From Escherichia coli (GTDB lineage Bacteria > Pseudomonadota > Gammaproteobacteria > Enterobacterales > Enterobacteriaceae): 64,000 nt of DNA. The position numbers are program-made. Each line of letters opens with the position of its first letter. Position 1 is the stretch's first letter. Location of the stretch: the NCBI RefSeq assembly GCF_024223415.1, contig NZ_CP100500.1; one strand, given 5' to 3'. Shown in pieces: positions 32,501 to 35,500 of the stretch.

Positions 32501-35500
32501 GCCAGTGCTGACTGTGTTGTCGTCAATATCTTCCCACTCATAACCCTGAGTCAGCGTAATACCTGCTACATGAGAGTTATTAGTGATGGACAGATCAACT
32601 TCCTGATCCAGTGTAATAGCAGTACCCATATCGTAAACATCTACAACATGAGTGTCAGCGGCATTATTATAGGTACCGTTGTAAGTATAATGCTCGTAGT
32701 TGTCATCGATCGTTGAATTATCAACGCTCAGTGTCAGACGATCATAAACATAACCAGTAGCACGGTCATCAGCACAATCAGTAGTCATGCACTCAGAGGT
32801 AATCATACCGTGAATAGTGCTGTTTTTGATTGTCAGACTATTGGCGTTGGTATTGGTAGAAATACCGTCGTCCAGATAGTAGGTAGAAATCACGCCGTTA
32901 ACGGTAGCGTTATTAATGACCGGGTAGATATCGCCGTTGTAATAGCTATCAGCGGCATAGTTGTTCCAGCCTACATAACCATCATAGTAAACGTCATCAG
33001 CATAGGTGGCGTCGTTGTAGTGATGGAAAGTATTGTAAGTTTGACCAGAAATATCGTTGGTCGCTGCATTAGCCTGAGAGGTGATAGCCAGAGTGCAAGC
33101 CAATGCTAATTGTGATACTACAAGTTTCTTTTTCCAGGAGTGCATTTGTCATCCCTCCTCAGGGACGTAATAAGTTGATCCATCAATTATCAATGCATAG
33201 AAAACATCTTATGTTTCGCGTTGACGATTATGCGGCGTTATAGAGGAATGGTTCAATTATTCTTTCCCCTAAGTCCGATTGCGGACATATATAAAAATAT
33301 CTATACGCACAAAGAATAAGTTGACAAAAACACTGCATTTCAACACGTTAATGAAATCATTAATTTTGAATTATAGATCCTGAAAATACCAAAACAACAA
33401 ATCAGACAAATAATTTATCAATAAACAATGAACTTTAAGTAATTCAATTTTTGACAGTTCAACCAAATTAGCAAAAATAATAACCAGCACCTATAAATAA
33501 AAATTAAAAATATTTTCAGTGAATATGAAATTATTGCTATTTCTATTACAAAGATGTCCTGGCCTCTCTTCCATTCTCTTCTTGTCAACATCGCGACAAC
33601 TTTCGTAAAACATCCCCACCCTGCTTCAGGTATACTATGCCCCTCGATTCCACAAACATCAGGCAGACCATGACAGACTTAATCCAACGCCCTCGTCGCC
33701 TGCGCAAATCTCCTGCGCTGCGCGCTATGTTTGAAGAGACAACACTTAGCCTTAACGACCTGGTGTTGCCGATCTTTGTTGAAGAAGAAATTGACGACTA
33801 CAAAGCCGTTGAAGCCATGCCAGGCGTGATGCGCATTCCAGAGAAACATCTGGCACGCGAAATTGAACGCATCGCCAACGCCGGTATTCGTTCCGTGATG
33901 ACTTTTGGCATCTCTCACCATACCGATGAAACCGGCAGCGATGCCTGGCGGGAAGATGGACTGGTGGCGCGTATGTCGCGCATCTGCAAGCAGACAGTGC
34001 CAGAAATGATTGTCATGTCAGACACCTGTTTCTGTGAATACACTTCTCACGGTCACTGCGGTGTGCTGTGCGAGCATGGCGTCGACAACGACGCGACTCT
34101 GGAAAATTTAGGCAAGCAAGCCGTGGTTGCAGCTGCTGCAGGTGCAGACTTCATCGCCCCTTCCGCCGCGATGGATGGCCAGGTACAGGCGATTCGCCAG
34201 GCGCTGGACGCTGCTGGCTTTAAAGATACGGCGATTATGTCGTATTCGACCAAGTTCGCCTCCTCCTTTTATGGTCCGTTCCGTGAAGCTGCCGGAAGCG
34301 CATTAAAAGGCGACCGCAAAAGCTATCAGATGAACCCAATGAACCGTCGTGAGGCGATTCGTGAGTCACTGCTGGATGAAGCCCAGGGCGCAGACTGCCT
34401 GATGGTTAAACCTGCTGGAGCGTACCTCGACATCGTGCGTGAGCTGCGTGAACGTACTGAATTGCCGATTGGCGCGTATCAGGTGAGCGGTGAGTACGCG
34501 ATGATTAAGTTCGCCGCGCTGGCGGGTGCTATAGATGAAGAGAAAGTGGTGCTCGAAAGCTTAGGTTCGATTAAGCGTGCGGGTGCGGATCTGATTTTCA
34601 GCTACTTTGCGCTGGATTTGGCTGAGAAGAAGATTCTGCGTTAATTTTGTTTCCTCTCAGAAAGGGGGAGTTAACCTGTTGAAAGTACGGTGAACGCCCC
34701 CTCACCCTAACCCTCTCCCCAAGGGGGCGAGGGGACCGTCCACTCTCGTATTACACCGCCCGATAAAACGGTTTATCCCCAAGAATCGTCGCCCGATGCA
34801 TTATCCGTCGCTGTGGCAGGTAATCGGCATTGGCATAGTGCTGGGTCACGCGGTTATCCCAAATCGCAATATCATTTGGTTGCCAGCGCCAGCGCACCTG
34901 AAACTCCGGTTTGGTGATATGGGCAAACAAAAAACTTAACAAGGCTTCGCTCTCTTTCTCGCTCACATCAACAATTCGCGTAGTAAAGCCTTCATTCACA
35001 AACAGCGCCTGTTTACCGCTCACCGGATGCGTTCGCACCACCGGATGTAGCAACGGCGGGTTTTTCGCGACCGCCTCGCGCCAGCGTTGATGTTCCTCCT
35101 CGGTTTTGCGGTATTTGTATTCCGGGAACGATTTACGAAAATCATGCTCCGCACGCAGCCCGCTCAGCAGCTGGCGGAAGGGAACAGAGAGCGCCTCATA
35201 GGCCGCAATACCGCTGGTCCAGAGCGTATCACCGCCGGTCGAAGGTAACTCTTTCGCTGCCAGAATCGCCCCTGCGGGTGGCGTTTCAATAAATGTCACA
35301 TCGGTATGCCAGTTGTCGTTATCTGGCGGATTATCGTTATGGGTATCCAGCACGATGATCTCGTCAACCCCTTCGGCATGAGGGTAAACAGGGTGAATAT
35401 GCAGTTCGCCAAAACGCTGGGCCAGCGCGCGTTGCTGCTGCGGCGTAATGGCTTGATCGCGCAGAAACACCACCTGATGGCGCAGTACCGCATGGTAAAG

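What the first reader, a model, noticed from the sequence alone, without database searches (positions are those of the whole stretch)
33146..33669. About 520 bp of strongly AT-rich DNA between yaiT and hemB
The divergent yaiT/hemB intergenic region contains long A/T tracts (e.g. aaaaataataaccagcacctataaataaaaattaaaaatatttt), typical of H-NS-bound, curved promoter DNA upstream of silenced surface-protein genes. It may also host the hemB promoter.
Basis: inference. Interest (0 to 1): 0.25.

Follow-up and report, generated by a model that had tools for sequence, protein, structure and literature searches.

The report
AT-rich control region of adhesin gene ehaB
The 524-bp gap between the E. coli adhesin gene ehaB (yaiT) and the haem gene hemB really is very AT-rich, but it is an ordinary two-promoter control region whose AT-rich middle belongs to the adhesin gene and most likely serves to keep that gene switched off.

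Summary
Window 33146-33669 is a 524-bp divergent intergenic region at 33.4% GC, against 52% for the window. It holds the most AT-rich stretch in the 64 kb, and its core (33281-33560) is 24% GC.

The region has three parts:
- **ehaB side (about 150 bp):** strongly conserved in 40 species. It carries a footprinted sigma-70 promoter, a dyad element and a leader.
- **hemB side (about 70 bp, normal GC):** carries the hemB promoter. The published transcription start maps to 33643.
- **Middle:** the AT-rich core.

Across 80 enterobacterial species the AT-rich DNA occurs only where ehaB/iprA or their remnants lie next to hemB. Species without them have a 95-160 bp gap at normal GC. One E. coli strain has lost the core and keeps only 52 bp upstream of hemB.

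Published RNA-seq shows K-12 yaiT up 11.5-fold in a hns stpA double mutant. I found no direct H-NS binding data, netropsin had no effect, and predicted curvature and A-tract phasing are no better than random. "H-NS-silenced" is therefore plausible, "curved" is unsupported, and the hemB promoter lies outside the AT-rich part.

One extra finding: 204 bp of the core exists in E. coli as deep allele classes only 63-75% identical.

This is ordinary overall, with low interest.

The parts
33146..33669 (.). whole divergent ehaB(yaiT)-hemB intergenic region, 524 bp, 33.4% GC
33146..33220 (-). predicted ehaB 5' leader (about 75 nt) from the predicted TSS near 33220 to the ATG; strongly conserved in its ATG-proximal 55 nt
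   Evidence: cross-genus alignment, majority frequency 0.73-0.98. TSS is inferred from the -10 position and was not measured.
33150..33167 (-). invariant 7-bp hairpin CGUCCCU-GAGG-AGGGAUG containing the Shine-Dalgarno sequence of ehaB
   Evidence: RNAalifold on 18 species, -9.7 kcal/mol. There is no covariation because the sequence is invariant.
33175..33186 (.). 12-bp palindrome TTGATCCATCAA inside the predicted leader, largely conserved (TTGAYGGAYMAAC on the mRNA strand)
   Evidence: function unknown
33227..33232 (-). ehaB promoter -10 hexamer CATAAT
   Evidence: consensus scan; the plus-strand ATTATGC is invariant in 40 of 40 sequences
33251..33256 (-). ehaB promoter -35 hexamer TTGAAC; the 18-bp spacer is variable in sequence but fixed in length
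   Evidence: GGTTCAAT nearly invariant
33273..33286 (.). conserved dyad GTCCG-N4-CGGAC, centred about 59.5 bp upstream of the predicted ehaB TSS; candidate transcription-factor site
   Evidence: kept as GTYYG-N4-YRGAC in all 40 sequences; only perfect copy in the window
33281..33560 (.). AT-rich core, 24.3% GC; A>T and C>G on the hemB-sense strand; candidate H-NS/StpA binding platform
33295..33498 (.). hypervariable segment of the core: three deep allele classes among the nine sampled E. coli, plus a fourth in the genome-collection record labelled E. coli (L012); 63-75% identical between classes, length 202-205 bp, no codon periodicity
33338..33350 (+). semi-conserved island TTTCAACACGTTA resembling the IHF consensus WATCAANNNNTTR, about 125 bp upstream of the predicted ehaB TSS
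   Evidence: CA at least 95% and TTA at least 80% conserved across genera. W[AT]TCAA-N4-TTR is at the aligned site in 12 of 40, at 84-95 bp from the -35 marker.
33451..33478 (+). best sigma-70 consensus match in 20 kb (TTGACA-16-AAAAAT), pointing towards hemB; present only in the window's allele class
   Evidence: not conserved in other alleles; probably a chance or cryptic promoter
33600..33613 (+). conserved block CTTTCGTAAAACAT covering the -35 region of the hemB promoter
33632..33637 (+). hemB promoter -10 hexamer TATACT
   Evidence: conserved as TAYACT/TACAAT across genera. It lies 6 nt upstream of the published TSS.
33643..33669 (+). hemB 5' UTR, 27 nt, from the experimentally mapped K-12 TSS
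   Evidence: Kim et al. 2012, PMC3415461, supplementary file 2. The 51-nt upstream sequence aligns end-to-end with window 33593-33643 with one mismatch.

Best explanation
The region is a composite divergent control region with three parts.

1. **hemB side.** The last roughly 70 bp (normal GC) are hemB's own sigma-70 promoter and its 27-nt leader.
2. **ehaB side.** The first roughly 150 bp are the ehaB promoter (-35 TTGAAC, 18-bp spacer, -10 CATAAT), an upstream dyad that probably binds a regulator, and a 75-nt leader with a Shine-Dalgarno hairpin.
3. **Middle.** The roughly 280 bp at 24% GC are part of the ehaB-iprA gene module, not of hemB.

The middle is constrained in base composition and, within Escherichia, in length, but not in sequence. 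It most likely works as a landing platform for the AT-binding silencers H-NS and StpA. Their filaments would cover the adjacent ehaB promoter and keep the adhesin off under laboratory conditions.

A possible IHF-like site and the dyad-binding factor would provide ways to relieve silencing. The core would also space the silenced promoter away from the constitutively used hemB promoter.

- **Shown:** composition, anatomy, conservation pattern, linkage to ehaB, the hemB TSS, and dispensability of the core for hemB.
- **Inferred:** H-NS/StpA binding, the ehaB TSS, and the identities of the factors.
For: - **Composition:** 24% GC over 280 bp, the extreme of the window.
- **Linkage to ehaB:** the AT-rich gap is present in 39 of 39 species with ehaB. 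It is absent (95-160 bp, 43-62% GC) where ampH abuts hemB. It is retained with ehaB remnants in S. diarizonae and Phytobacter.
- **Composition conserved, sequence not:** core GC is 20-33% in 39 of 40 sequences, yet the sequences are unalignable between genera.
- **ehaB promoter footprint:** invariant -10 and -35 with a fixed-length variable spacer in 40 sequences.
- **hemB promoter:** the published TSS aligns to 33643, and the -10 is conserved.
- **Natural deletion:** IS1-mediated deletion in strain 4848 leaves 52 bp upstream of an intact hemB.
- **Silencing:**
  - K-12 yaiT is at about 176 normalised counts against about 6000 for hemB in wild type.
[quoted passage not shown] Table 1).
  - No TSS is listed between hemB and the IS3 in yaiT.
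  - Salmonella seaB is reported as poorly expressed in the laboratory.
- **General precedent:** H-NS-bound intergenic regions upstream of genes evolve faster than unbound ones (PMC4720273). That fits the hypervariable core.
- **No alternative content:** no Rfam hit, nothing annotated in the MG1655 record, no codon periodicity.
Against: - I could not retrieve direct H-NS or StpA occupancy data for this locus.
- The hns single mutant raises yaiT only 1.46-fold. Netropsin, which displaces H-NS/StpA in that study, does not induce it (log2 -0.15). yaiT is flagged neither as horizontally transferred nor as overlapping an H-NS hairpin.
- The double mutant is highly pleiotropic, so the 11.5-fold rise may be indirect.
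- The published high-affinity H-NS motif (recalled as TCGATAAATT) has one 9/10 match in the core, and that match is not conserved between alleles.
- No intrinsic curvature is predicted.
- The RNA-seq is for the K-12 allele class, which is only about 66% identical to the window's core.
Confidence: 0.55

Rival explanations
1. Functionless spacer. The core is unconstrained DNA left between two promoters when the ehaB-iprA module came to lie next to hemB. It is AT-rich only because bacterial mutation is AT-biased, and hypervariable because nothing selects its sequence.
For: - No conserved sequence between genera, with frequent indels; the gap ranges 389-617 bp.
- Hypervariable within E. coli.
- Dispensable for hemB.
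- No conserved H-NS motif.
- Promoter-like sites are no more frequent than in shuffles.
Against: - GC of 20-33% is held in 39 of 40 species. That is far below the other local intergenic regions (mean 45%) and lower than I would expect from mutation bias alone (the latter is inference).
- Strand asymmetry has a constant sign in 37-38 of 40 species.
- The distance from the dyad to the hemB block stays at 312-316 bp across Escherichia despite 35-40% substitution divergence.
- There is a semi-conserved island at 33338-33350.
- yaiT is derepressed in hns stpA cells.
Confidence: 0.2
2. Polymorphic regulatory cassette. The core is itself a target of balancing or diversifying selection, or of repeated introgression. 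The allele classes would set different ehaB expression programmes in different E. coli lineages, whether or not H-NS binds.
For: - Classes are 63-75% identical, as deep as E. coli versus E. albertii (58-65%). The adjacent 100 bp follows the species tree, and hemB third positions differ by only 0-8%.
- The window's class is closer to Escherichia sp. MOD1-EC7003 (81%) than to the K-12 class (about 66%).
- All three classes found among the sampled E. coli are common: about 7%, 20% and 72% of 5344 genomes.
- The dyad variant differs by class.
- A strong promoter-like site occurs only in the window's class.
Against: - No expression data compare the alleles.
- High diversity next to an antigenically variable passenger domain could be hitch-hiking.
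- Class frequencies look phylogroup-linked (O157:H7 in one class, LF82 in another, K-12 in a third). That pattern is also what simple old vertical divergence would give.
Confidence: 0.15
3. Hidden gene. The core encodes a small RNA, a small protein or a type I toxin-antitoxin pair.
For: Short ORFs exist. Examples are a hydrophobic 27-aa ORF at 33525-33608 on the plus strand and a 57-aa ORF at 33418-33591 on the minus strand. Intergenic regions of about 500 bp often hide such genes.
Against: - No Rfam match, even at E-value 1.
- No 3-nt periodicity of variable sites: 29/35/36.
- The ATG of the 27-aa ORF is ATA in strain NR3736.
- Nothing is annotated in the MG1655 reference record.
- No TSS other than hemB's is listed in the published K-12 map.
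- No terminator-like hairpin.
Confidence: 0.04
4. Phase-variation switch. The core is an invertible element or a slipped-strand repeat that turns ehaB on and off, as fimS or ipuS do for other adhesins.
For: The neighbouring gene is an adhesin. An invertible promoter element regulates the autotransporter UpaE in UPEC (PMC6083910). One 23-nt imperfect inverted repeat pair lies at 33360-33382 and 33485-33507.
Against: - That repeat is 83% complementary in AT-rich DNA and is not kept in other alleles.
- No tandem repeats, and no homopolymer longer than 5.
- No recombinase gene adjoins the region.
- All listed genomes align collinearly in one piece.
Confidence: 0.02

Closest known systems
H-NS/StpA-silenced, AT-rich promoter regions of E. 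coli adhesin and autotransporter genes (from my own knowledge: upaC and ehaG/upaG are reported as H-NS-repressed; in the data used here flu, ycgV, ecpA and pgaA rise in hns or hns stpA mutants)
   Same: A long AT-rich upstream region, a gene poorly expressed in the laboratory, and strong derepression in the hns stpA double mutant. The gene encodes a surface adhesin.
   Different: H-NS binding has not been shown here. The response to hns alone is weak and there is none to netropsin. The gene is not a recent island: its position next to hemB is shared by Escherichia, Citrobacter, Enterobacter, Kluyvera and others.
ybdO promoter and other H-NS-bound upstream intergenic regions that diversify between E. 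coli strains (Higashi et al. 2016, PMC4720273)
   Same: A regulatory region upstream of a gene whose sequence diverges faster than neighbouring DNA while the AT-rich character is kept.
   Different: The scale differs. Median diversity of H-NS-bound regions in that study is 0.016. Here the mean pairwise difference in the core is about 0.22, and 0.25-0.37 between classes. Regions longer than 300 bp were excluded from that study, so this one was not analysed.
ecp (mat) operon control region regulated by EcpR, IHF and H-NS (cited as reference 56 in PMC6083910; details from my own knowledge)
   Same: Possible architecture: an AT-rich silenced adhesin promoter with an IHF-like site and a dedicated activator site upstream.
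   Different: Here the IHF-like site matches the consensus in only 12 of 40 species. The factor binding the GTCCG-N4-CGGAC dyad is unknown.
fimS / ipuS invertible promoter switches
   Same: A non-coding element of a few hundred bp upstream of an adhesin gene.
   Different: There are no conserved terminal inverted repeats, no adjacent recombinase and no inverted copies.
Intrinsically curved upstream DNA with phased A-tracts
   Same: High A-tract density, 48 per kb.
   Different: The tracts are not in helical phase. Predicted curvature equals that of shuffled sequence.

Membership tests
H-NS/StpA-silenced AT-rich regulatory region | AT content well above the genome average over a few hundred bp | tested here: met
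   75.7% AT over 280 bp against 48% for the window; lowest 200-bp GC in 64 kb
H-NS/StpA-silenced AT-rich regulatory region | H-NS (or StpA) occupancy in vivo | not testable with these tools
   No ChIP table with this locus could be retrieved. yaiT is not flagged as overlapping an H-NS hairpin in PMC12460168.
H-NS/StpA-silenced AT-rich regulatory region | Downstream gene derepressed when the silencers are removed | tested here: inconclusive
   Published RNA-seq for K-12 yaiT: log2 +0.54 in delta-hns, +3.52 in delta-hns delta-stpA, -0.15 with netropsin. It could be indirect, and the K-12 allele class differs from the window's.
H-NS/StpA-silenced AT-rich regulatory region | High-affinity nucleation motif (recalled as TCGATAAATT) | tested here: inconclusive
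   One 9/10 match at 33412-33421 and one 8/10 match in the region. This is no enrichment over the window (95 matches in 64 kb), and the sites are not conserved between alleles. The motif is not strictly required for H-NS binding.
Intrinsically curved DNA | A-tracts in phase with the helical repeat; high predicted curvature | tested here: not met
   No AA/TT power at 10-11 bp. Wedge-model mean is 18 degrees against 20 +/- 3.5 for shuffles and 73 for a phased control. Model parameters were recalled from Bolshoy et al. 1991.
Sigma-70 promoter (hemB) | A -10 hexamer at the right distance from a mapped TSS, conserved in relatives | tested here: met
   TATACT at 33632-33637; the published TSS aligns to 33643; conserved in 40 sequences. 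The -35 is poor.
Sigma-70 promoter (ehaB) | -35 and -10 hexamers with 16-18 bp spacing, conserved in relatives; a mapped TSS | tested here: inconclusive
   TTGAAC-18-CATAAT is invariant in 40 sequences with a variable spacer of fixed length. No TSS has been mapped; none is listed in K-12.
Invertible or slipped-strand phase-variation switch | Conserved terminal inverted repeats or a simple-sequence repeat; a nearby recombinase; both orientations in populations | tested here: not met
Small RNA or small-protein gene | A conserved transcript, structure or ORF | tested here: not met
   No Rfam hit, no periodicity, start codon lost in one allele, nothing annotated in the MG1655 record, no TSS
IHF binding site | Match to WATCAANNNNTTR with an AT-rich flank, conserved in position | tested here: inconclusive
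   The window has TTTCAACACGTTA, one mismatch. The strict consensus is in 3 of 40, the one-mismatch form in 12 of 40 and a relaxed form in 18 of 40, all at the aligned site.

The most novel reading that the evidence does not exclude
The 204-bp centre of the AT-rich core (33295-33498) may be an ancient regulatory polymorphism shared across species. Escherichia carries at least four allele classes. They are as divergent from one another as E. coli is from E. albertii. They are embedded between DNA that follows the species tree, and they are held to the same length and the same strand-asymmetric A/C-rich composition. This would mean that selection maintains alternative 'silencer' alleles that give the ehaB adhesin different expression set-points in different lineages.
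Probability: 0.2. Interest if true: 0.45.

Novelty: new member of a known kind. Interest (0 to 1): 0.22.

Why it matters
EhaB is an extracellular-matrix-binding adhesin of EHEC and other E. coli. Its Salmonella orthologue SeaB is being considered as a vaccine antigen, yet neither is expressed well in the laboratory.

Three results give concrete handles for finding the conditions and factors that switch the adhesin on:
- The regulatory DNA lies in the first roughly 150 bp plus an AT-rich, probably H-NS/StpA-bound core.
- The region contains a conserved dyad and an IHF-like island.
- E. coli lineages carry very different core alleles.

For genome annotation, the result also shows that the hemB promoter needs only the last 50-100 bp of this gap.

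Beyond that, the finding is an ordinary example of an AT-rich silenced promoter region.

Tried and rejected
- **Rfam scan** of 32500-34500 at E-value 1: nothing.
- **Terminator scan:** none in the region.
- **Tandem repeats:** none.
- **Inverted repeats:** only imperfect AT-rich pairs, not conserved in other alleles. The invertible-switch idea was dropped.
- **Short ORFs:**
  - 15 ORFs of at least 20 aa overlap the region.
  - The hydrophobic 27-aa ORF at 33525-33608 loses its ATG in strain NR3736.
  - Variable sites show no codon periodicity.
- **H-NS motif search:** no enrichment.
- **Curvature and A-tract phasing:** negative, with working positive controls. The two 'random' controls were accidentally homopolymers and should be ignored.
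- **Origin of the core in another genus:** rejected. The core finds matches only in Escherichia.
- **H-NS occupancy in supplementary tables:**
  - Kahramanoglou 2011 and Ueda 2013 have no held supplements.
  - The IPOD-HR paper and Higashi 2016 hold no entry for yaiT or hemB.
  - Forrest 2022 lists only hemB expression.
  - Lucchini 2006 and Herman 2016 are not held.
- **Literature searches:** 'yaiT' with 'H-NS' found no paper. 'ehaB' with 'H-NS' found 14 papers; the two I opened linked the terms only through their reference lists.
- **Dyad elsewhere:** the GTCCG-N4-CGGAC dyad has no second perfect copy in the window, including near iprA. The IprA link therefore remains a guess.
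Full report
**Context.** The window is Escherichia coli. Positions 33000-33800 are 100% identical to E. 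coli O78 strain 3, and the stretch is found in 5423 of 5426 complete E. coli genomes.
- RefSeq annotation of that strain places the autotransporter adhesin gene ehaB on the minus strand, ending at its ATG at 33145. This is the gene called yaiT in K-12.
- hemB is on the plus strand from 33670. iprA and ampH lie beyond ehaB, and tauDCBA beyond hemB.
- In the window itself ehaB is a pseudogene. A 1331-bp IS2 sits at 29905-31235 with a TTGCC target duplication. This insertion is independent of the IS3 insertion that disrupts K-12 yaiT.

- The intergenic region is exactly 33146-33669, 524 bp, at 33.4% GC against 52.0% for the window. Only 0.27% of 524-bp windows are as low.
- The core 33281-33560 is 24.3% GC, and the lowest 200-bp stretch of the whole 64 kb lies inside it.
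- Of 26 neighbouring intergenic regions (mean 45% GC) it is the longest and third lowest. The two lower ones are much shorter.
- The AT-richness is confined to the middle. The 135 bp next to ehaB are 39% GC and the 109 bp next to hemB are 49.5% GC.

**Anatomy from comparison.** I fetched the hemB neighbourhood from 80 species of Enterobacterales. In 39 of them an ehaB homologue lies divergently upstream of hemB. I aligned those gaps with the window's. Three zones emerge.

*Zone 1, 33146 to about 33294 (ehaB side), conserved almost like coding sequence.*
- On the minus strand the -10 CATAAT (33232-33227) and the -35 TTGAAC (33256-33251) are invariant in all 40 sequences. The 18-bp spacer between them varies in sequence but not in length. 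That is the classic footprint of a sigma-70 promoter.
- Upstream of the promoter lies a conserved dyad, GTCCG-N4-CGGAC (33273-33286). It is centred about 59.5 bp from the predicted start near 33220. The half-sites change without compensation, which suggests a protein site and not a hairpin.
- The predicted 75-nt leader contains a conserved palindrome (33175-33186).
- The leader also contains an invariant 7-bp hairpin that carries the Shine-Dalgarno sequence (33150-33167).

*Zone 2, about 33580-33669 (hemB side), holds the hemB promoter.*
- It has a conserved block at 33600-33613 and a -10 TATACT at 33632-33637.
- The published K-12 start-site map gives a hemB TSS with a 27-nt leader. Its 51-nt upstream sequence aligns end-to-end with window 33593-33643 with a single mismatch. 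This puts the TSS at 33643 (Kim et al. 2012, PMC3415461).
- That table lists no other start between hemB and the IS3 inside yaiT.

*Zone 3, the AT-rich middle,* is not alignable between genera and varies in length there.

**Whose DNA is the AT-rich middle?** It goes with ehaB, not with hemB.
- All 39 species with ehaB have a gap of 389-617 bp whose lowest 200 bp are 17-30% GC.
- Species without ehaB and iprA (Klebsiella, Raoultella, several Citrobacter, Pantoea and others) have ampH or another gene 95-160 bp upstream of hemB, at 43-62% GC.
- The apparent exceptions retain remnants.
  - S. enterica subsp. diarizonae has a decayed ehaB but keeps the promoter block, the dyad and the AT-rich DNA.
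  - Phytobacter ursingii has an IS in ehaB.
  - E. albertii is cut by a contig end.
  - Two species keep only iprA next to an AT-rich gap.
- E. coli strain 4848 has an IS1-associated deletion that removes ehaB and everything up to window position 33618. It leaves 52 bp in front of an intact hemB. hemB therefore does not need the core.
- A recent preprint independently notes that seaB/ehaB always lies between hemB and iprA.

*Curvature is not supported.*
- A wedge-model profile gives a mean of 17 degrees for the region against 16 for the window. I implemented the model with Bolshoy 1991 parameters recalled from memory.
- 26% of equal-sized windows are at least as curved.
- The core (18 degrees) is no more curved than its own shuffles (20 +/- 3.5).
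- Phased A-tract controls give 73 degrees and unphased ones 3.
- AA/TT dinucleotides show no 10-11 bp periodicity.

*H-NS silencing is plausible but not shown.*
- The recalled high-affinity H-NS motif has one 9/10 match, and it is not conserved.
- In favour, RNA-seq in PMC12460168 shows K-12 yaiT at about 176 counts in wild type against about 6000 for hemB. It rises to about 1900 in delta-hns delta-stpA (log2 +3.52, p = 1.8e-192).
- Also in favour, Salmonella seaB is described as poorly expressed in standard conditions and induced by anaerobic shock.
- Against a simple picture, hns alone gives only +0.54, netropsin gives -0.15, and yaiT carries neither the 'horizontally transferred' flag nor the H-NS hairpin flag in that table.
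- I could not retrieve any H-NS ChIP table that includes this locus.

**What the core is not.**
- It has no Rfam match, no terminator and no tandem repeat.
- Its inverted repeats are weak and allele-specific.
- Variable sites show no codon periodicity, 29/35/36.
- The only appealing small ORF (27 aa, 33525-33608) loses its start codon in one strain.
- The MG1655 reference record annotates nothing there.
- Promoter-like matches are no more frequent than in shuffles. One strong match (TTGACA-16-AAAAAT, 33451-33478, pointing at hemB) exists only in the window's allele class.

**An unexpected feature: deep allele classes.**
- Within E. coli the flanking blocks are 95-97% identical and the first 51 bp of hemB are invariant. 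The 204 bp at 33295-33498 fall into classes only 63-75% identical to each other, with almost no length change (202-205 bp).
- In 5344 genomes the window's class has about 379 members at 95% identity or more, including O157:H7. A second class has about 1050 at 80-90%, including LF82. The K-12 class has about 3900 at 60-80%.
- hemB third-codon positions differ by only 0-8% among the same strains. Two strains with identical hemB (429 bp) have cores 66% identical.
- Across Escherichia, the 100 bp to the right of the core follow the species tree: E. coli 93-100%, E. albertii about 70%.
- The core classes are as far apart as E. coli and E. albertii (58-65%). The window's class is closest to Escherichia sp. 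MOD1-EC7003 (81%).
- The distance from the dyad to the hemB block stays at 312-316 bp in all twelve Escherichia sequences.
- The dyad itself differs by class: GTCCGATTGCGGAC against GTCCGAATGTGGAC in K-12-type alleles.
- Higashi et al. reported that H-NS-bound regions upstream of genes diversify faster (median 0.016 against 0.0067). They excluded regions over 300 bp, and the divergence here is an order of magnitude larger.
- I cannot distinguish ancient balanced polymorphism, introgression and hitch-hiking with the antigenically variable passenger domain. That domain also occurs in two deep classes scattered across genera.

**A second unexplained feature: strand asymmetry.**
- On the hemB-sense strand the centre of the gap has A>T in 38 of 40 species (mean skew +0.24) and C>G in 37 of 40 (mean -0.25). 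This holds although the sequences are not alignable.
- In the window only 0.14% of equal-sized windows are as skewed in both measures.
- Replication skew has the same sign but is about ten times weaker.
- The species are related, so these counts are not independent trials.

**One semi-conserved island within the core.**
- It lies at 33338-33350 (TTTCAACACGTTA) and resembles the IHF consensus.
- It sits at a constant 84-95 bp from the -35 marker in the 12 of 40 species that match W[AT]TCAA-N4-TTR.

**Verdict.**
It is a divergent control region whose AT-rich centre belongs to a poorly expressed adhesin gene and probably recruits H-NS/StpA.
- 'Curved' is not supported, and the hemB promoter lies outside the AT-rich part.
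- I found no paper describing this particular region, so I class it as a new member of a known kind.
- The deep allele classes and the conserved strand bias are the only points that might repay further work.

Noticed in passing
window 29905-31235 (flanks 29900-29904 and 31236-31240): ehaB/yaiT is interrupted by a 1331-bp IS2 with a 5-bp TTGCC target duplication. This splits the gene into a 641-aa N-terminal ORF and a 354-aa C-terminal ORF. The gene is intact in the otherwise identical O78 strain 3. The event is independent of the IS3 insertion in K-12 yaiT.
   Followed up: yes
window 33273-33286: There is a conserved dyad GTCCG-N4-CGGAC about 59.5 bp upstream of the predicted ehaB start, kept in 40 species. 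K-12-type alleles carry the imperfect GTCCGAATGTGGAC. The 5-N4-5 geometry recalls FNR-family sites. The co-located gene iprA (28156-28824, minus strand) encodes a winged-helix protein with a weak cNMP-binding-like domain, so IprA is a candidate binder. That link is speculation.
   Followed up: partly
window 33150-33167 and 33175-33186 (minus-strand mRNA): The ehaB leader holds an invariant 7-bp hairpin that contains the Shine-Dalgarno sequence (GAGG in the loop). It also holds a conserved 12-bp palindrome TTGATCCATCAA. Either could be a translational or operator element.
   Followed up: partly
window 31220-33062 and loci L012-L083 (ehaB passenger domain): The EhaB passenger domain falls into two deep classes: about 42-50% against 59-89% amino-acid identity to the window's. 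They are distributed without regard to genus. For example, two Citrobacter youngae strains differ (47% against 78%), and Pseudocitrobacter faecalis is 89% identical. Divergence starts immediately after the signal-peptide cleavage site.
   Followed up: no
locus L011 (E. coli strain 4848), equivalent to window about 28900-33617: An IS1-associated deletion removes nearly all of ehaB and the intergenic region up to 52 bp before hemB. This natural experiment shows that hemB function does not need the AT-rich DNA or its conserved -35-region block.
   Followed up: partly
window 33296-33569 and the matching part of 39 other species: Strand-asymmetric composition (A>T, C>G on the hemB-sense strand) is conserved in sign in 37-38 of 40 species, although the sequence is not. 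It is unexplained. The sign matches replication skew, but the magnitude is about ten times larger.
   Followed up: partly
window 33338-33350: There is an IHF-consensus-like island (TTTCAACACGTTA) at a fixed distance from the ehaB promoter. It matches the consensus, allowing one variable position, in 12 of 40 species, and is degenerate in the others.
   Followed up: partly
K-12 locus L092, 3093-3149 (no counterpart examined in the window): K-12 annotates a small protein gene, ytiB, antisense inside yaiT. It is listed with yaiT as a convergent transcriptional overlap in the ExcludonFinder paper (PMC12288877). I did not check whether it is conserved in the window's ehaB allele.
   Followed up: no
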